This document shows positions 9,498-34,123 of a stretch of 34,123 nucleotides of DNA, piece after piece. Numbering within the stretch: position 1 is the stretch's first letter; every line of letters begins with the position of its first letter. Origin of the DNA: a virus; UHGV virus genome UHGV-1338014. One strand, given 5' to 3'. Under the pieces are notes generated by a model. The model saw only the letters and a list, made by a program, of their open reading frames with translations. It did no database searches and had not been told where the DNA came from. The position numbers and the translations under genes were made by a program.

Positions 9498-9891
9498 TCT
9501 TTTTGTTCGCGTTATTTACTCCCGCTTTATGTTGTGCCAGTGGTCGTTTCTGGGACTGTCGGCAGTACTTTTTCTGGCAAGCTGTTTTGCCGGATGGCGG
9601 GCGTTTGCGGTCATGGTGCTGGCATACGGCGCGACACTCTGCCTGATTCACAGTTTCTCGCTGGGCAACGTACCTAATCGCCTGCAACCCAAAAGGCGTT
9701 TCCGGGCCGCCTCCCTTCGAATTGTCGGGTGGTCATGGGTGGTCTGGGCCGTTGGTCTTTTCATGCTGACATTCGGCCTTCTTTATCTGAAGGAGCCTTA
9801 TCAGCTGGCGTTCTGGCTGGGCGGTATCTTTTGCGCGGCACTTTATAAACATCAGCGCAGTTTTCATAAGGGGGATTCATGGATCCGTTAA
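9481..9891 (+). CDS. Putative multi-pass membrane protein (holin-like candidate, 136 aa)
   Basis: Internal ATG 9481 with AAGGA RBS; about four hydrophobic helices (FLGLSAVLFLASCFAGW, AVMVLAYGATLCLIHSF, GWSWVVWAVGLFMLTFGLL, LAFWLGGIFCAALY). The upstream part of the 9310 ORF looks untranslated. Confidence 0.5.
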   Translation: MHRMNSLFVRVIYSRFMLCQWSFLGLSAVLFLASCFAGWRAFAVMVLAYGATLCLIHSFSLGNVPNRLQPKRRFRAASLRIVGWSWVVWAVGLFMLTFGLLYLKEPYQLAFWLGGIFCAALYKHQRSFHKGDSWIR

Positions 9892-10487
9892 CCCTTTCAG
9901 GCATCGCCTCTGTTCTGCTGAAAGCCGGGCCGGGGCTGATTCGTTCCGTCGGGCGCTGGTTTGGTGGTAGCACATCTGCCGCCGCTGACTCGGTGGCCGG
10001 TATGGTGGAAAGCGTCCGGGAAAGCCTGCCGGTTACCGAACAGCAACGCATTCTGGAACAACAACTGACGGCGTTGTCACCGGAGCAACTGATGCAACTG
10101 GAAACGCTGAAAGTCCAGTTACAACAGCTTGAGGTGGAACGGCAGAAGCTGGTGCTGGCTGACGAGCAGGCCGCGCATCACGAACAGCAGGAAACCATCC
10201 GCAATGGTGACAACGCTGCGGACAGCTATGTGCGCCAGACGCGCCCGCTGCTGGCCCGTCTTTCCTGTTACAGCAGTCTGACCTATGTGCTGTTGCTCTC
10301 CTGTGGCCAGATTGCCGGAGCCATTGCCGGTGCCAGAGGTATCACACTGCATATGCCGTCACCGGACTGGGATATCACGCTGATGTTGCTTACCCCGGCG
10401 CTGGGCTATCTCGGAGTAAGAACCATGGACGGCTTTGCCCGGTACAGCAAATCGAGCCGTCACAAAATCTCTGCGGGGCCGAAATGA
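9879..10487 (+). CDS. Hypothetical protein with coiled-coil middle region and C-terminal hydrophobic segments (202 aa)
   Basis: ORF overlapping neighbours in the lysis/early-late region; possibly lysis-associated. Confidence 0.5.
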   Translation: MDPLTLSGIASVLLKAGPGLIRSVGRWFGGSTSAAADSVAGMVESVRESLPVTEQQRILEQQLTALSPEQLMQLETLKVQLQQLEVERQKLVLADEQAAHHEQQETIRNGDNAADSYVRQTRPLLARLSCYSSLTYVLLLSCGQIAGAIAGARGITLHMPSPDWDITLMLLTPALGYLGVRTMDGFARYSKSSRHKISAGPK

Positions 10488-27738: not shown

Positions 27739-28804
27739 AATCCCCACGCTGGGCAAACTGATTGCCGACGGCGAAAAAGATATTGCGTATGAACTCGGCC
27801 TGCAAAAGCTGCCGCCTGTCAGTGTTGAGCAGGCGCTGAACGTGTCATTCAGCAGTCAGGTCCGGGATTTATACGACCATCAGAGCTGGATTAAGGACCA
27901 GATAATCCCGTCCACCACGTCTGATGATGAAACCATTATCAAAACAGCAACGTATGAAGGGGTTATCCGCAAACAGGCCACCTTTGCCAGCGGGCCGGTG
28001 ACCTTCACCAGTCAGTCTCTCCTTCCGGCTGAAACACGGATGCAGTCCGACACGAATCAGGTGTACCAGGTGCTCACATCCGGTGAGGTACGGGACGGCG
28101 AGGTCACCGTCATTGTGCAGGCTGAAGAAGCCGGGGTGGCGGGTAATCTTGCTGCCGGTGCCGTGCTGACCCTGTTATCTCCGCTGCCCGGAACGGCCAG
28201 TGCAGGCGTGGTGGCTGAAGGTGGCATCACCGGTGGCGCAGACACTGAATCCATCGCGGAGCTGCTGGACCGTCTGCTGTATGTGCGTCGCAATCCCCCG
28301 GTGGGCGGTGCTCTGCATGATTACGTCATCTGGGCTCGCGAAGTGGCTGGCGTCAGCCGCGCGTGGGCGTGGGATGCGTGGCACGGCCCCGGCACGGTCG
28401 GACTGGCATGGCTTTACGATGACCGTGAAGATATTGTACCGACCCGCAAAGACCTGAAGACAATGGAGCAGTATCTGTTCTGCCACAAACACCCGGCCAC
28501 TGGGGTTATGGTGGGCAAACCGGGCGGCATTGAGGTCTGGCCGGTTCAGGTCAGGCTGAAGAAAGTCGACCTGTCCATCCGTCTGACACCGGACGGCCAG
28601 GCAAACAGGAACGCCGTCCGGGCAAACCTGACCGCATTACAGAAAACGCTGGCCCCTGGTCAGATGCTGCCGGTGTCCTCGCTGCGCACGGCCATCGGTA
28701 TGACATCCGGCATTACAGATTACTTTCTCAACATCGGGGAAGACACCACCAGTGATGTGGATGAGCTTATCACCATCGGGGAGGTGACATGGCTCACAGC
28801 GTGA
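27728..28804 (+). CDS. Baseplate J-like protein, Mu gp47 (358 aa)
   Basis: Size and position. Confidence 0.7.
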   Translation: MPYEIPTLGKLIADGEKDIAYELGLQKLPPVSVEQALNVSFSSQVRDLYDHQSWIKDQIIPSTTSDDETIIKTATYEGVIRKQATFASGPVTFTSQSLLPAETRMQSDTNQVYQVLTSGEVRDGEVTVIVQAEEAGVAGNLAAGAVLTLLSPLPGTASAGVVAEGGITGGADTESIAELLDRLLYVRRNPPVGGALHDYVIWAREVAGVSRAWAWDAWHGPGTVGLAWLYDDREDIVPTRKDLKTMEQYLFCHKHPATGVMVGKPGGIEVWPVQVRLKKVDLSIRLTPDGQANRNAVRANLTALQKTLAPGQMLPVSSLRTAIGMTSGITDYFLNIGEDTTSDVDELITIGEVTWLTA

Positions 28805-29763
28805 CGGAATGGCTGACCGCACTGCAACAGGTCATGCCACGGGGTAAAGCATGGACGCGTGATAACGACGCGGATTTAAACCGTTTTTTAAGGGCGCTTG
28901 CAGCGCGTTTAACCCGCATTGAATACGACGCCTCGCGTCTGCATGTGGAGATGCGCCCGGAAACCATGCTCCAGCTGCTGCCGGAGTGGGAGCAGTATCT
29001 GGCGCTGCCGGAATGCGGAATTGCCGCCACCACAACGGAAGCCCGCCGTCGTGCCGTGGTGGAGAAATACCGCCGCAAGGGTGGGCTGGCAACCTGGCAG
29101 ATTGAAGCCGCTGCTGCGGCGCTGGGCTTCACCATCAAGGTGACGGCCGTTCTGCCGCATCACTGCCTGCGCGACTGCATGTACCCGCTGCATCCGGCGC
29201 GGTATCGCTGGCTGCTGAAAGTGGAGGTTCAGGACAGCGACGCCGGGCGTTTTACCTGTGTTGATGATGTCATGACACCATTAATCAGCGGACGCACCCG
29301 CGAGCTGGAATGTCTCCTGAAAAATTACCGCATGGGTGGAACAGGGTATGAGTTTTTTTACACCGATGGTAACGATGAGGCTGTGTCCGGTCCGCCATTA
29401 TCCGTTAATCGCATACAGATTCAGGCCGGATATAAACCAGAAGAACCGTTAACGGTTAACTGTGCAGGGCTGCATTTTGCACTTGTTCCGGCACTGACAG
29501 GTAAGCCGCTGACAATTAACCGGATTAACTTTTATGCCGCCCGTCCGACGGCAGAACCACTGGTACTCAGCAGGGCGCAATTGCACTCAGGTCTGCCGAC
29601 AACGGACCCCATGACCATGAGCAGCGCACAGTTGCAGACGGGATACAGGACCCGCTCCCCCGTACCGGTTAACAGTATGCAGTTGCAGACAGCCAACAGA
29701 ACCCGTGAACCGTTATTGATTAATCACCCGGGACTGCATTTTGCTGTGGTCACGTCCGAATGA
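28789..29763 (+). CDS. Tail protein, Mu gp48 / P2 gpI-like N-terminal domain with a C-terminal repeat extension (324 aa)
   Basis: About 190 aa gpI-like region, then about 130 aa made of degenerate peptide repeats (…N-R-I-Q-I-Q-A-G-Y… / …A-Q-L-Q-T-G-Y… / …M-Q-L-Q-T-A-N…) and two copies of HPGLHFA-like ends. Confidence 0.65.
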   Translation: MAHSVTEWLTALQQVMPRGKAWTRDNDADLNRFLRALAARLTRIEYDASRLHVEMRPETMLQLLPEWEQYLALPECGIAATTTEARRRAVVEKYRRKGGLATWQIEAAAAALGFTIKVTAVLPHHCLRDCMYPLHPARYRWLLKVEVQDSDAGRFTCVDDVMTPLISGRTRELECLLKNYRMGGTGYEFFYTDGNDEAVSGPPLSVNRIQIQAGYKPEEPLTVNCAGLHFALVPALTGKPLTINRINFYAARPTAEPLVLSRAQLHSGLPTTDPMTMSSAQLQTGYRTRSPVPVNSMQLQTANRTREPLLINHPGLHFAVVTSE

Positions 29764-29786
29764 CATAAAATAAAAGGAGAGCCGCT

Positions 29787-30845
29787 TTGAATATTATTAA
29801 ACTCGAAAGTTTTCGACAAATTCCGGCGAATGAGGGATTGTGCGAGAACTATTATTCAACAAATATTATTTCAGCACTGAACGAAAACGGTGTCACGCTT
29901 ATCAATGATATGTCCGGTTCTGTAACATCCGTCTGTCGTGGCACTCAGGCCGTAAATACTGTAGAAAGAACGGGGCTGATTTTTACGACACCCTCATATG
30001 TCACACTGTACAGCACACTTCCGGACTTAAAAGCCTCAGCTGTACAGCTGGGATTTCGTCTGACATTAAGTGCGGGAAAGAAATATTCATCTTCGCCATC
30101 CCACATCAGGATTAATGGCTATTCATTTACAACCCCGTATCCTGATGAAGCAGCCAGTTATTACTATGAAATTTTCGCAACGCGAAACGAAAACGGCTAT
30201 GTCTCAGCCAGTCTGTACTGCAACCGCTCATTAGTTGGAAATGCATCGTTTTATGTATCAGATGACCGGACTGACAAAATTCAGGTGAGTATTGGTAGTG
30301 GTGACAATATTTTTTCATCGGGTGCATCCGGCACGTTAATGCTGGGTGATATGTACTGTGGAACAGTGGCATACGGAAAAAATAACAGCGCGGAACCCGC
30401 CCTGCTCGGAAGTATTGAGGTCAGATACAGCCCGGTAACGGCATTTACCGGTGGAAGCGCCAAAAACTCACTGAATAAAGATATTGTCACGGGGCTGAAC
30501 ACCTCTGACAGCGAGGCCGGATATCTGATGCTCTCGCCGTCCCTGAATGCAGCACAGGCCACGTTTGGTGCGGTGGATAACAGCAACAGTGATGTTGTGG
30601 CTGTTATGGCCTCGGTCACTTACCGCGGTGCTGATGCCCCCAATAACCGCCTGGCCTGGAAAGTGAAAAATGGCAGCCATGCAGGCGCAACGATTACAGA
30701 GAATGGCGTACAAAGCGACACAAACAGCTGGACGACTGTCTCACAGAGTTTTATGACCCAACCAGGAGGGAACACTCCCTTCGCTAAGGGTGAGCTGACT
30801 TTTACAGCGGAGTTGTTTAATCAGGCAAGGAGCGCTACTGAATAA
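29787..30845 (+). CDS. Hypothetical Ser/Thr/Asn/Gly-rich protein, probable tail-fibre or receptor-binding component (352 aa, TTG start)
   Basis: AAAGGAGA RBS 6 nt upstream of TTG 29787; lower GC than flanking genes; beta-rich composition. Confidence 0.55.
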   Translation: MNIIKLESFRQIPANEGLCENYYSTNIISALNENGVTLINDMSGSVTSVCRGTQAVNTVERTGLIFTTPSYVTLYSTLPDLKASAVQLGFRLTLSAGKKYSSSPSHIRINGYSFTTPYPDEAASYYYEIFATRNENGYVSASLYCNRSLVGNASFYVSDDRTDKIQVSIGSGDNIFSSGASGTLMLGDMYCGTVAYGKNNSAEPALLGSIEVRYSPVTAFTGGSAKNSLNKDIVTGLNTSDSEAGYLMLSPSLNAAQATFGAVDNSNSDVVAVMASVTYRGADAPNNRLAWKVKNGSHAGATITENGVQSDTNSWTTVSQSFMTQPGGNTPFAKGELTFTAELFNQARSATE

Positions 30846-30887: not shown

Positions 30888-31958
30888 ATGTTTCACATTG
30901 ATAATAATACTGGCGTGCCGGTTATGCCGCCCGTCGCGGCTGAATACAGTAAAACGACGCTTTATTTCACCGAAGGAGGGAACGGTATTCCACCCACGTA
31001 TCCGGGGCCGGACTGGTTTAATATCGTGCAGTCCGAAATGCTGGAAATTCTCCGGCAGGCAAATATCAAACCGGACAAAAACACGACCAACCAGATTATG
31101 ACGGCGCTGAAAAAGCTGTTTATCACTAACAGTGGTTCAGCCGGGGCTATTGCCGAATTAACCGGTCAGAATAATACGTTCCCGTATTTTACGGGCGAAG
31201 ACACAATGTCATTAACGCCACTCAGTGCGTTTGTGCGCAGTATTCTCGGCAAAGAAAGTGCAACAGATTTTGCAGATGCACTGAAAGTCATAAAACAATC
31301 AGGCGACACGATGACAGGAGAGTTGAAAATCCGTGGTGTTAATGCGCTGAGGATTTTCGACGAAGCCTTTGGCCTGATTTTTCGTCGTTCGGAAGAGTGC
31401 CTGCACCTTATCCCTACCAGTGAAGGTCAGGGCGAGAATGGCGATATTGGTCCACTTCGCCCGTTCGCTATTAATCTGCGGACGGGTGAAATATCCATGT
31501 CGCATAAAGTGTCTGTTGGCGGTGGTTCGCAGGTCAATGGTGCGCTGGGTATCGGCGTTCAGAACGCGCTGGGCGGAAACTCAATTGCTTTCGGGGATAA
31601 CGATACCGGCCTGAAACAGAATGGTGACGGCATTCTGGATGTTTATGCGAATAACCAGCATGTGCTGCGTTTTCAGAGTGACAGCATTCAGAGCAATAAA
31701 GCAGTAAACGTTACAGGGCGGGTAACACCGTCAGACTACGCAAATTTTGATGCCCGCTATAAGCAGAGGACGGAGGGCGTGGAGGATATCCGGCTGGGAG
31801 GCCAGAGGGTCGACGGACACTATGATGATGATTTTACCGTTCCTTCAGGGTATGTCGTGGTTGGTGGTGATGTGCATCCTTCAACGTCATTAAAGCTGTA
31901 CTCAAGACCCCTTCAGAAATTAATTAATGGCACCTGGTATAACGCGGCGAGTGTATAA
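30888..31958 (+). CDS. Tail fibre protein (356 aa)
   Basis: N-terminus MFHIDNNTGVPVMPP...GIPPTYPGPDWFNIVQSEMLEIL resembles the conserved N-termini of enterobacterial phage side tail fibres; followed by a tail-fibre assembly gene. Confidence 0.7.
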   Translation: MFHIDNNTGVPVMPPVAAEYSKTTLYFTEGGNGIPPTYPGPDWFNIVQSEMLEILRQANIKPDKNTTNQIMTALKKLFITNSGSAGAIAELTGQNNTFPYFTGEDTMSLTPLSAFVRSILGKESATDFADALKVIKQSGDTMTGELKIRGVNALRIFDEAFGLIFRRSEECLHLIPTSEGQGENGDIGPLRPFAINLRTGEISMSHKVSVGGGSQVNGALGIGVQNALGGNSIAFGDNDTGLKQNGDGILDVYANNQHVLRFQSDSIQSNKAVNVTGRVTPSDYANFDARYKQRTEGVEDIRLGGQRVDGHYDDDFTVPSGYVVVGGDVHPSTSLKLYSRPLQKLINGTWYNAASV

Positions 31959-31960
31959 CA

Positions 31961-32506
31961 ATGCTTCATTTAAAAAATATTACTGCGGGTAATCCGAAAA
32001 CGGCAGAGCAATATCAGATGACAAAGCGGCATAGTATTGTCTGGCTTTTTTCGGAAGATGGCAAAAACTGGTATGAAGAACAGAAGAATTTTGCCAGCGA
32101 CACCATAAAAGCAGCCTATAACGACAGCGGGCGCGTGGTGTGGGTCGGTAAGGATGTGACAGGTATCGAACCCACTAACGTCAGTATCATTGAACTCCCG
32201 GATATTACTGCTAACCGCCGCATCACCGTACCGGGATACTGGTTTTACCGCAATGATGAATTTGTTTTTGATTACAAATTAAAAGCAGAAGACGAGCGTG
32301 ATACCCTGTTACAACAGACCAGCATCATGACCAGCGAATGGGAAAAAGACCTGCTGTTGGGATTAATCAGCGACGAAGACAGGGAAAAGCTGAAAGCGTA
32401 CCGTATTTACGCAAAGGCGTTGCAGGCGATGGATTTAAGCACCATCACCGATAAAACCACATATAACGCCATTAACTGGCCGGAGCGTCCCGATGCCGCA
32501 GCTTAA
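31961..32506 (+). CDS. Tail fibre assembly chaperone (Tfa / Mu U-like, 181 aa)
   Basis: Typical Tfa size and position immediately 3' of the fibre gene. Confidence 0.75.
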   Translation: MLHLKNITAGNPKTAEQYQMTKRHSIVWLFSEDGKNWYEEQKNFASDTIKAAYNDSGRVVWVGKDVTGIEPTNVSIIELPDITANRRITVPGYWFYRNDEFVFDYKLKAEDERDTLLQQTSIMTSEWEKDLLLGLISDEDREKLKAYRIYAKALQAMDLSTITDKTTYNAINWPERPDAAA

Positions 32507-32963
32507 AGGTGTGATTAAAACGCCCACAGGAGAACCGCTGGGCGGCACAACCATCACGCTGACCTCCCTGCACAACCGTGCAGGGATTCTGAAAGGTGTT
32601 TTCAGCCACGTCACTACACAGAGCGGGGAGTACGACTTCCCCGTTCTGCCGGGCGTGTACAGTGTTCGCCTGACACAGAGCGCACAGCGCCTTTCAGAAA
32701 TCGGCATCATTCGCGTTTATGAAGATTCACAGGACGGTTCGCTTAACGATTTTTTGTCGGTGACAGATGCAGATTTGCGCCCTGAATCTCTTAAAAAGTT
32801 CGAAGAGATTGCAATGCAGATACAAAAAAGTGCGGAAAGTGTCAGATTATATGCAGAGGAGGTGAAACGGGATTGCGCAATTACCCTCGAAAACAGAAAA
32901 CAGACAGAGAGACTGCTGTCCCTGATAGCAGAGCCTCTTTCTCAGAGTGCCGCAGAAAGCTGA
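32493..32963 (+). CDS. Stand-alone prophage tail-fibre N-terminal domain protein (156 aa), likely remnant of a second fibre gene
   Basis: IRVYEDSQDGSLNDFLSVTDADLRPE matches the hallmark motif of the lambda-type side-tail-fibre N-terminal domain; the ORF stops after about 156 aa with no fibre shaft. Confidence 0.6.
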   Translation: MPQLKGVIKTPTGEPLGGTTITLTSLHNRAGILKGVFSHVTTQSGEYDFPVLPGVYSVRLTQSAQRLSEIGIIRVYEDSQDGSLNDFLSVTDADLRPESLKKFEEIAMQIQKSAESVRLYAEEVKRDCAITLENRKQTERLLSLIAEPLSQSAAES

Positions 32964-33003
32964 CTCAAAAAAGGTTAATAATTAAGCGTTTTGTATAGAT
33001 TAT

Positions 33004-33100
33004 GACGATCGATACCATCATATCGATCGTCGTTTTACATCATGTGTGGTTAAATATCCCCAGCCCTCCGGGTGGTCGTATCTGGTTATTACACAGGGGG
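33004..33100 (+). promoter_or_regulatory. com-mom regulatory region with a perfect 11-bp palindrome carrying two GATC sites
   Basis: GACGATCGATA-N6-TATCGATCGTC at 33004..33031 (GATC at 33007..33010 and 33025..33028), followed by the promoter region and the com RBS. Mu mom is known to be controlled by Dam methylation upstream of its promoter. Confidence 0.6.
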
Positions 33101-33984: not shown

Positions 33985-34051
33985 GAAGCACGAAAATTAA
34001 AGTTTTCGCATTTATCGTGAAACGTTTTCGCGTTTTTCGTGCGCCGCTTCA
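33975..34051 (+). promoter_or_regulatory. Right end (attR) with putative transposase-binding sites R1-R3
   Basis: CGAAA-containing repeats (TTCGTGCTTCAAAC complement, TTTCGCATTTATCGTGAAACG, TTTCGCGTTTTTCGTGCGCCGCTTCA) terminating in ...CA at 34051. Confidence 0.7.
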
Positions 34052-34056
34052 GCCGC
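34052..34056. repeat. Right copy of 5-bp target-site duplication (GCCGC)
   Basis: Identical pentamer to 48..52, immediately after the terminal ...CTTCA. Confidence 0.85.
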
Positions 34057-34123
34057 TGTTCATATTTACTCATTAAGATCGCTTCACTAAACCATAATTT
34101 TACAGGGGCTATTATGCGGAAAC

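What the first reader, a model, noticed from the sequence alone, without database searches (positions are those of the whole stretch)
29787..30845. Novel 352-aa low-GC protein with TTG start inserted upstream of the tail-fibre gene
This gene has its own strong RBS (AAAGGAGA), a non-ATG start, lower GC than the baseplate genes and a Ser/Thr/Asn/Gly-rich beta-type composition. It has no counterpart in the Mu gene order as I recall it (gp48 then S then U). It may be an additional receptor-binding protein or tail spike, or a cargo protein riding in the fibre locus, and would be a host-range determinant specific to this phage.
Basis: partly seen in the sequence, partly recalled or inferred. Interest (0 to 1): 0.65.

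Follow-up and report, generated by a model that had tools for sequence, protein, structure and literature searches.

The report
Extra lectin-fold tail head protein
This is a real gene of a Mu-like prophage that most likely encodes a second, sugar-binding attachment protein; it always travels with a 17-residue repeat "docking tail" that in this phage is fused to baseplate protein gp48, so it looks like a transferable host-range module of a kind not yet described.

Summary
The ORF is real: 29787..30845 (+), 352 aa, with a TTG start and AAGGAG RBS that are conserved in relatives. It is not a split Mu S gene, because the downstream 356-aa fibre has its own S-type N-terminus. It belongs to a very small Enterobacteriaceae prophage family (phrog_8291, function unknown). 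The family has 17 clusters among 1.84 billion proteins, occurs in 64 of 5,426 complete E. coli genomes, and has no match in deposited phage genomes.

AlphaFold gives a confident model (pLDDT 90.6) of two beta-sandwich domains with a ConA-type lectin/glucanase fold. The best full-length fold matches are ~350-aa siphophage proteins encoded after the tail fibre, one of which was found in virions by LC-MS/MS.

The main result is a linkage. In 43 of 44 scorable loci the family gene lies beside (41) or two genes from (2) an ORF ending in 2-8 copies of a 17-residue repeat (PLxINRxQLQSGxxxxE), closed in most tails by a distinct cap repeat. That tail is fused to different virion anchors: Mu gp48 (here), lambda Stf-type PF08400 domains, a P2 H-type N-terminus, or a free-standing small ORF.

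Best reading: a portable adaptor-plus-head cassette that adds a second, probably glycan-binding adhesin to the baseplate. Docking and receptor binding are inferred, not shown.

The parts
29774..29779 (+). Shine-Dalgarno sequence AAGGAG, 7 nt upstream of the TTG start
   Evidence: Read directly from the sequence. Similar motifs lie upstream of the start in relatives.
29787..30845 (+). CDS of 352 aa with a TTG start: the lectin-fold head protein, phrog_8291 family
   Evidence: ORF. phrog_8291 match over the full length, E 4e-242. 27 homologue clusters. AF2 pLDDT 90.6, pTM 0.89. Fold searches.
29395..29760 (+). Repeat tail at the C-terminus of gp48 (residues 203-324): seven 17- or 20-residue units of PLxINRxQLQSGxxxxE, with cap-type units (GLHFA) at positions 2 and 7. 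This is the inferred docking adaptor for the 352-aa protein.
   Evidence: Unit coordinates. Register and consensus. Absent from Mu gp48 and from most gp48 homologues. Moves together with the family gene. pLDDT about 27-40 when modelled as a lone chain.
28789..29394 (+). gp48 (YmfQ/BW3) baseplate wedge core domain plus a short linker: the anchor
   Evidence: Pfam PF10076 over residues 11-191, E 6e-29. 31% identity to Mu gp48, E 4e-27. One copy per wedge, and it docks the fibre in Mu (PMC11915804).
30888..31958 (+). Complete tail fibre of 356 aa, a Mu S homologue with its own N-terminal attachment region
   Evidence: blastp to Mu S residues 1-142 (E 3e-24) and 258-504 (E 2e-24). phrog_6859 tail fiber.
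31961..32506 (+). Tail fibre assembly chaperone, a Mu U/U' homologue
   Evidence: Pfam PF02413, E 3e-23. blastp to Mu U', E 4e-59.
32493..32963 (+). Truncated PF08400 (Stf-type N-terminal anchor) ORF. It marks the alternative site where sister prophage L011 carries its repeat tail and family gene.
   Evidence: Pfam PF08400 over residues 4-127. PGAP marks the equivalent ORF in L001 as missing its C-terminus. L011 layout. Homology to L011 is lost between about 32806 and 33283.

Best explanation
The gene encodes the globular head of an auxiliary receptor-binding device. The protein is a two-domain beta-sandwich of the ConA-like lectin/glucanase fold. It is made from the late tail operon and is proposed to bind the 17-residue repeat tail at the C-terminus of baseplate wedge protein gp48. 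That tail does not appear to fold on its own. Mu-type baseplates carry one gp48 per wedge, so the virion would display six such heads next to the six ordinary S/U fibres, giving a second and probably carbohydrate-directed attachment activity. Tail and head form a portable cassette that recombination has grafted onto different virion anchors. Shown here: the gene and its start, the fold, the position in the operon, and the two-way tail-head linkage across anchors. Inferred: physical docking of the head on the tail, presence in this virion, and glycan or receptor binding.

For: 2. Full-length fold matches. TM scores are 0.6-0.69 with E down to 2e-14 to ~350-aa proteins of siphophages. The best is AchV4_0026, which is 352 aa, lies two genes after the tail fibre, and was detected in CsCl-purified virions by LC-MS/MS (PMC7996906).

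3. Operon position. The gaps are 23 nt after gp48 and 42 nt before the fibre. No promoter-like or terminator-like site lies in either gap, and counts are at shuffle level.

4. Linkage. In 41 of 44 scorable loci the ORF directly upstream ends in 2-8 repeat units. In L024 and L025 the repeat-tailed gp48 is two genes away. Only L013/L014 has merely a repeat-like small ORF. Anchors include three gp48 lineages, PF08400 Stf-type domains in Mu-like, P2-like and lambdoid prophages, a P2 H-like N-terminus, and free-standing 64-90-aa ORFs.

5. Reverse test. Of 17 IMG/VR loci found with the tail alone, 16 carry the family gene, and the 17th is cut by the contig end.

6. Shared module boundary. Near-identity to the ydfJ prophage begins inside the tail, not at the gene.

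7. In several loci (L009, L011, L008) the repeat-tailed anchor protein has no other C-terminal globular domain and no following Tfa, so the family protein is the only candidate distal domain.

8. The tail models at pLDDT 27-40 as a single chain, whereas the gp48 core is mostly 70-88.

9. In Mu, gp48 is the fibre-docking wedge protein and there is one per wedge (PMC11915804).
Against: - There is no direct evidence that the protein is in this virion or that it binds anything. A co-fold of tail and head could not be run.
- Divergence is uniform along the protein, with mean pairwise identity of 58% in both halves. Receptor-binding proteins usually show a conserved N-terminus and a variable C-terminus.
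- The invariant polar residues Y126, E128, N146 and D188 could mark a catalytic or partner-binding site rather than a receptor site.
- The same head (98% identical) is paired with two different cap sequences in L027 and the window, so the pairing is not strictly co-evolved.
- The same tail appears on trimeric fibre anchors and on single-copy gp48, which no single simple structural model explains.
- The low pLDDT of the tail may partly reflect a shallow alignment.
- Sequence-level homology to the AchV4 virion proteins is only marginal (hhalign E 1e-3 to 6e-3).
- No cultured phage in INPHARED encodes the family, so all members are prophage genes of unknown activity.
Confidence: 0.55

Rival explanations
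1. It is an assembly chaperone for the repeat tail, comparable to Tfa or gp38 for fibre tips. It would fold or oligomerise the repeat region and then leave. The repeats themselves would be the functional shaft or receptor-binding element.
For: The gene usually lies immediately after the ORF that ends in the repeats, which is the classic fibre-then-chaperone order. In lambdoid L009 it occupies the tfa position after a short Stf. The tail does not model as an autonomous fold. Uniform conservation and an invariant polar cluster would fit a conserved partner-binding site.
Against: At 352 aa with two lectin-type sandwich domains, it is unlike known fibre chaperones, and there is no PF02413 or gp38 match. 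The structural analogue AchV4_0026 is retained in virions. Repeat-tailed anchors would then end in a bare 50-130-aa repeat with no globular receptor-binding domain. The window already has a Tfa for its S fibre. A protein can be both chaperone and retained adhesin, as reported for Mu-type Tfa proteins (cited in PMC11915804), so this rival overlaps with the main reading.
Confidence: 0.2
2. It is a virion-borne glycan-degrading enzyme, a jelly-roll polysaccharide lyase or hydrolase acting as a depolymerase, rather than a passive lectin.
Against: Identity to these enzymes is only 6-15% over about 140-176 residues, and non-catalytic lectins and CBMs score the same. There is no Pfam, NCBIfam or PDB sequence match. 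Catalytic residue geometry could not be examined because the tools do not expose model coordinates.
Confidence: 0.12
3. It is a non-structural cargo gene (a moron), for example for lysogenic conversion or superinfection exclusion, that merely rides in the recombination-prone fibre region.
For: GC is low relative to the baseplate genes. In several prophages it is the last or nearly last phage gene before host DNA. No isolated phage encodes it.
Against: It has no promoter or terminator of its own and is tightly packed on the same strand within the tail operon. The low GC is shared by the whole fibre module. It has no match to defence-system models, and the conserved N-terminus is not hydrophobic, so by eye there is no signal peptide. 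A cargo gene would not be expected to stay linked in both directions to a repeat tail on five or more kinds of virion anchor.
Confidence: 0.07
4. It is the detached N-terminal part of a split Mu S fibre gene.
For: Only its position directly upstream of the fibre gene.
Against: blastp against Mu S gives E 0.8. The downstream 356-aa fibre contains the S N-terminal region itself (residues 1-134 match Mu S 1-142, E 3e-24). The fold is globular, not fibrous.
Confidence: 0.01

Closest known systems
Separately encoded fibre-tip adhesins such as gp38 of T2/T6-type phages (from my own knowledge of the literature)
   Same: A globular protein encoded directly after the fibre or anchor gene would attach non-covalently to that protein's C-terminal end and supply receptor recognition.
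   Different: There is no sequence or fold relationship, and no Pfam gp38 hit. The partner here is a 17-residue repeat array rather than the gp37 tip. The anchor can be a baseplate wedge protein present as single chains.
Anchor-plus-RBP baseplate modules of lactococcal siphophages (BppU/BppL, with the accessory carbohydrate-binding BppA), and branched RBP adaptors such as G7C gp66/gp63.1 and the CBA120 tailspikes (from my own knowledge of the literature)
   Same: Separately encoded receptor-binding or carbohydrate-binding heads are hung on an adaptor that is part of the tail tip, which allows modular exchange.
   Different: The hosts, folds and adaptor chemistry differ. Those adaptors are folded domains, whereas this one is a short tandem repeat that models as disordered on its own.
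AchV4_0025, 0026 and 0027 and related ~350-aa proteins of Casjensviridae and other siphophages
   Same: They share the same two-domain fold over the full length (TM 0.6-0.69), a similar size, a position just after the tail fibre gene, and several family-invariant residues. AchV4_0025 and 0026 are virion proteins by LC-MS/MS.
   Different: Sequence homology is marginal. No repeat-tailed partner was seen in AchV4_0024. Their function is also unknown.
ConA-like lectin/glucanase superfamily (legume lectins, CBM4/CBM22, PL7/PL14/PL36 lyases, GH16)
   Different: Only one domain aligns, at 6-15% identity, with no sequence-family membership. No ligand or catalytic residues have been established.
Adenovirus and reovirus fibre shafts (triple beta-spiral repeats), for the repeat tail only, recalled from memory
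   Same: Short tandem units of about 15-20 residues begin with Pro-Leu, have alternating hydrophobic positions, and carry a globular head at the distal end.
   Different: This was not tested structurally. gp48 is present as one chain per wedge, which does not fit an obligate homotrimeric shaft. The head is a separate polypeptide.

Membership tests
phrog_8291 (PHROG family of unknown function) | Full-length match to the family HMM | tested here: met
   E 4.4e-242, residues 1-348 against profile positions 1-348 of 349
Mu S / gp49 tail fibre (constant N-terminal part) | Sequence similarity to Mu S residues 1-170 | tested here: not met
   Best blastp E 0.8. The neighbouring 356-aa fibre carries that region instead.
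Tail fibre assembly chaperones (Caudo_TAP PF02413; gp38 adhesin family) | Match to the Pfam models | tested here: not met
   No Pfam family at E <= 0.1. The window's Tfa is a different ORF, 31961..32506.
ConA-like lectin/glucanase fold | Jelly-roll beta-sandwich superimposable on members of the superfamily | tested here: met
ConA-like lectin/glucanase fold | Demonstrated carbohydrate binding or a recognisable sugar/metal site | not testable with these tools
Jelly-roll polysaccharide lyases (PL7/PL14/PL36) | Conserved catalytic residues in the cleft and sequence-family membership | tested here: inconclusive
   There is fold similarity but no sequence match in Pfam, NCBIfam or the PDB. The catalytic geometry was not examined.
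Phage moron / cargo gene | Own promoter and terminator, transcribed independently of the late operon | tested here: not met
   No site in the flanking gaps, and counts are at shuffle level. This is a consensus scan only, and expression was not measured.
Virion structural protein | Detected in purified particles | not testable with these tools
   Shown only for the fold analogue AchV4_0026.
Repeat-tail plus head cassette (defined in this analysis) | A family gene accompanied at the same locus by an ORF ending in PLxINRxQLQSG repeats | tested here: met
   Window gp48 residues 203-324. The pattern holds in 43 of 44 scorable loci and in the reverse direction in 16 of 17.
Triple beta-spiral fibre shaft (for the repeat tail) | A homotrimeric intertwined spiral of 15-20-residue repeats | tested here: inconclusive
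   The period and hydrophobic pattern are compatible. The monomer model is disordered. There is no PDB or Pfam sequence match. The one-per-wedge stoichiometry of gp48 argues against it.
Anti-phage defence systems (PADLOC) | Match to any defence-protein model | tested here: not met
   No family at E <= 0.1.

The most novel reading that the evidence does not exclude
The 17-residue repeat array is a previously unrecognised, portable docking adaptor that folds only when it binds the lectin-fold head. It lets one receptor-binding head be grafted by recombination onto unrelated virion anchors: a myovirus wedge protein present as single chains, Stf-type side-fibre N-termini, a P2 H-type N-terminus, or a small free adaptor protein. 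The long tails with two cap-type units may carry more than one head per chain.
Probability: 0.3. Interest if true: 0.7.

Novelty: new variant of a known kind. Interest (0 to 1): 0.5.

Why it matters
If the reading is right, this Mu-like phage carries two attachment systems, the S/U fibres and six gp48-mounted lectin-fold heads. The second system would be a self-contained two-part module (repeat tail plus head) that natural recombination has already moved between Mu-type, P2-type and lambdoid tails. That would be a ready-made plug-in for engineering host range, because a ~50-130-residue tail could be fused to an existing tail protein and the head supplied in trans. It would also give a function to a family that is annotated only as 'hypothetical protein' in about 1% of complete E. 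coli genomes, several of them ETEC reference strains. Finally, it would explain why annotation pipelines mis-call extended gp48 genes as pseudogenes.

Tried and rejected
- Pfam, NCBIfam, PADLOC and PDB sequence searches of the 352-aa protein found nothing.
- tblastn of the protein, and of the distant member P0032, against 50,697 deposited phage genomes found nothing.
- A word-indexed homologue search with the tail alone returned one fragment.
- A viral-contig scan with the Raoultella-type tail returned nothing.
- Tandem Repeats Finder saw no DNA-level repeat in the tail region; the repeat is visible only at protein level.
- The gp48 model gave no usable structure for the tail.
- hhalign of the family profile against single AchV4 proteins was marginal or negative.
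- I looked for a relic second copy of the family gene next to the PF08400 remnant and found none.
- Literature searches for the PHROG id, for triple beta-spiral phage fibres, and for Casjensviridae tail structures found nothing that describes this family or this repeat.
- The split-S idea was rejected.
- A beta-helix tailspike fold was rejected.

Full report
**Observation**

The ORF exists as described: 29787..30845 on the + strand, 352 aa, starting at the first start codon (TTG) after an in-frame stop at 29766. An AAGGAG lies at 29774-29779, 7 nt upstream. The TTG is conserved in 11 of 16 relatives inspected, each with a Shine-Dalgarno-like motif upstream, and three of the most distant members use ATG. 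The first residues (MNIIxLEGFRQIP) are conserved across the family and modelled with high confidence, so the start call is sound.

GC is 0.472 against 0.586-0.591 for gp44, gp46, gp47 and the gp48 core. The drop is not specific to this gene. It begins inside the C-terminal extension of gp48 (0.536) and covers the fibre (0.492), Tfa (0.460), a truncated PF08400 ORF, com and mom. The whole distal tail module is compositionally distinct, as is common for exchangeable fibre regions.

**Setting**

The window is the right ~34 kb of a Mu-like transposable prophage. The baseplate genes gp44 to gp48 match Pfam and PHROG models and Mu proteins. com and mom follow. The Mu right-end 19-mer TTTTTCGTGCGCCGCTTCA lies at 34033-34051 and is identical to the last 19 nt of the Mu genome record.

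In Mu, gp48 is 180 aa and S begins at its stop codon, so the gene has no counterpart in Mu. The 356-aa ORF downstream (30888..31958) is a complete S homologue: its residues 1-134 match Mu S 1-142 (E 3e-24) and residues 130-356 match Mu S 258-504. The 352-aa protein does not match S (E 0.8). The split-S explanation is therefore refuted.

**What the protein is**

No Pfam, NCBIfam, PADLOC or PDB sequence match exists. The protein matches phrog_8291, a family of unknown function, over its full length (E 4e-242).

The family is very small.
- A word-indexed search of 5.8 billion proteins found 27 clusters.
- An exhaustive HMM search of 1.84 billion representatives found 17.
- All named sources are Escherichia, Raoultella, Salmonella or Citrobacter.
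- It is present in 64 of 5,426 complete E. coli genomes and is annotated 'hypothetical protein' in every listed row that has an annotated feature.
- It has no match in 50,697 deposited phage genomes.

Foldseek against predicted viral structures does give full-length matches (TM 0.6-0.69, E down to 2e-14) to ~350-aa proteins of siphophages. The best is the 352-aa AchV4_0026, which lies two genes after the putative tail fibre and was detected in purified virions by LC-MS/MS (PMC7996906). Profile comparison with single AchV4 sequences is only marginal. AchV4_0025 does keep the family-invariant residues F90, Y126, E128, N146, D188 and G208 in a joint alignment, but that alignment is forced and is suggestive only.

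**The key finding: a two-part cassette**

The upstream gp48 is 324 aa. The Pfam gp48 domain covers residues 11-191, and most homologues are 190-200 aa. Residues 203-324 are seven tandem units of 17 or 20 residues with the consensus P-L-x-I-N-R-x-Q-L-Q-S-G/A-x-x-x-x-E. A second 'cap' flavour (PLxxNxxGLHFAxx) occurs at units 2 and 7. No Pfam or PDB sequence matches this repeat.

Three observations tie the tail to the gene.

1. Shared module boundary. When compared with a different prophage at ydfJ (L003), near-identity begins inside the tail, not at the gene boundary.

2. Forward linkage. Of 44 loci with enough upstream sequence, 41 have a directly upstream ORF ending in 2-8 such units. In L024 and L025 the repeat-tailed gp48 is still present, but the fibre and Tfa lie between it and the family gene. 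The remaining pair, L013/L014, holds the most distant member and has only a repeat-like 90-aa ORF upstream.

3. Reverse linkage. Of 17 IMG/VR loci retrieved with the tail alone, 16 carry the family gene, and the 17th is cut 3 nt after the tail.

The protein that bears the tail differs between loci.
- Three lineages of gp48: the window type, the L003 type, and a 29-30%-identical type in L034-L036.
- PF08400 Stf-type N-terminal domains, in a sister Mu-like prophage (L011), a P2-like Raoultella prophage (L006-L008) and lambdoid prophages (L009, P0126).
- A P2 H-like fibre N-terminus in E. albertii (L017).
- Free-standing 64-90-aa ORFs that follow a fibre protein (L004, L015, L013).

These are documented.

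L011 is especially informative. It has a short gp48 (194 aa), then S, U, an intact PF08400-plus-repeats protein (202 aa), a family member, then com and mom. In this window the PF08400 ORF at the same position (32493..32963) is truncated, and homology to L011 is lost exactly where L011 carries its tail and head. The same phage lineage therefore mounts the cassette at either of two sites.

**How it most likely works**

Cryo-EM of Mu shows six wedges, each with one gp46, two gp47 and one gp48. The trimeric fibre docks on a gp48 loop at residues 133-155 (PMC11915804). A C-terminal tail on gp48 would therefore be present as six separate single chains at the baseplate periphery.

Modelled alone, the tail has pLDDT 27-40, while the gp48 core is mostly 70-88. 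This is compatible with a segment that folds only with a partner, although the alignment over the tail is shallow.

In several loci the repeat-tailed anchor has no other globular C-terminal domain and no chaperone gene after it. That leaves the lectin-fold protein as the only candidate distal domain.

The gene sits inside the late operon, with gaps of 23 and 42 nt, and no promoter-like or terminator-like site lies in either gap.

My best reading is that the 352-aa protein docks on the repeat tail and acts as a second, probably glycan-binding, adhesin alongside the S/U fibres. I put confidence in this full statement at about 0.55. I am more confident (about 0.8) in the narrower claim that it is a tail-associated partner of the repeat tail.

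**Caveats and rivals**

- Divergence is uniform along the protein, at 58% mean pairwise identity in both halves, rather than concentrated at a distal tip.
- The invariant polar residues could equally mark a partner-binding or catalytic site.
- One head (98% identical) pairs with two different cap sequences.
- The same tail on trimeric fibres and on single-chain gp48 is not explained by a simple triple beta-spiral shaft. The resemblance of the repeat to adenovirus shaft repeats is from my memory and was not tested.

The rivals are as follows.
- An assembly chaperone for the tail (0.2). This overlaps with the main reading if the protein is retained on the virion.
- A virion-borne jelly-roll lyase or hydrolase (0.12).
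- A non-structural cargo gene (0.07). The operon position and the two-way linkage to virion anchors argue against it.
- A split S gene (0.01, refuted).

**Novelty**

The family is already catalogued without a function, so the gene itself is not new. Accessory adhesins hung on adaptors are a known kind of system. What I could not find in the libraries or in the searchable literature is this family's role, the 17-residue repeat, or an adhesin mounted directly on the wedge protein gp48. I rate it a new variant of a known kind, of moderate interest, resting entirely on computational evidence.

Noticed in passing
window 34033-34051: The Mu-type right end TTTTTCGTGCGCCGCTTCA is identical to the last 19 nt of the Mu genome record. 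The prophage therefore ends at 34051, and 34052-34123 is host flank.
   Followed up: yes
window 32507-33071: There is no gin invertase and no inverted S'/U' copies between Tfa and com. Unlike Mu, this phage has no invertible G segment (one search compared).
   Followed up: partly
window 32493-32963: This PF08400 (Stf-type anchor) ORF is truncated. Sister prophage L011 has an intact version at the same position with the repeat tail and a 50%-identical family gene. No relic of a second family gene copy remains in the window.
   Followed up: yes
L003 7332-8294: PGAP annotates the repeat-tailed gp48 of the ydfJ prophage as a pseudogene 'missing C-terminus', although the 320-aa frame is open. This is probably an annotation artefact caused by the extension.
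   Followed up: partly
protein P0092 (1795-bp Logan contig): The C-terminal part of a Baseplate_J (gp47-like) protein is fused directly to the same repeat tail. It is either another anchor variant or a deletion or assembly artefact.
   Followed up: no
E. coli complete genomes: Carriers of the gene (64 of 5,426 genomes) include several ETEC reference strains (B7A, E2528-C1, TD225-C4) and many human diarrhoeal isolates. Four of the matching places are on large plasmids.
   Followed up: no
L001 11331-12218; L002 11081-12313: Near-identical prophages are inserted into different host genes: a truncated FAD-dependent monooxygenase next to mhpR/lacI in one strain, and a truncated PilZ-domain gene upstream of bcsB in another. 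This is what transposition-type integration would produce.
   Followed up: no
window 9501-10000: There is a strong local AT skew of -0.38 in a single 500-nt window.
   Followed up: no
L004 7002-7775; L015 4742-5788; L013 2661-4991: Where the repeat adaptor is a free-standing small ORF, the preceding fibre proteins share a conserved C-terminal domain (…GLP.GRA…W….W….P..G..R…..WD…). This may be the docking site for that small adaptor.
   Followed up: no
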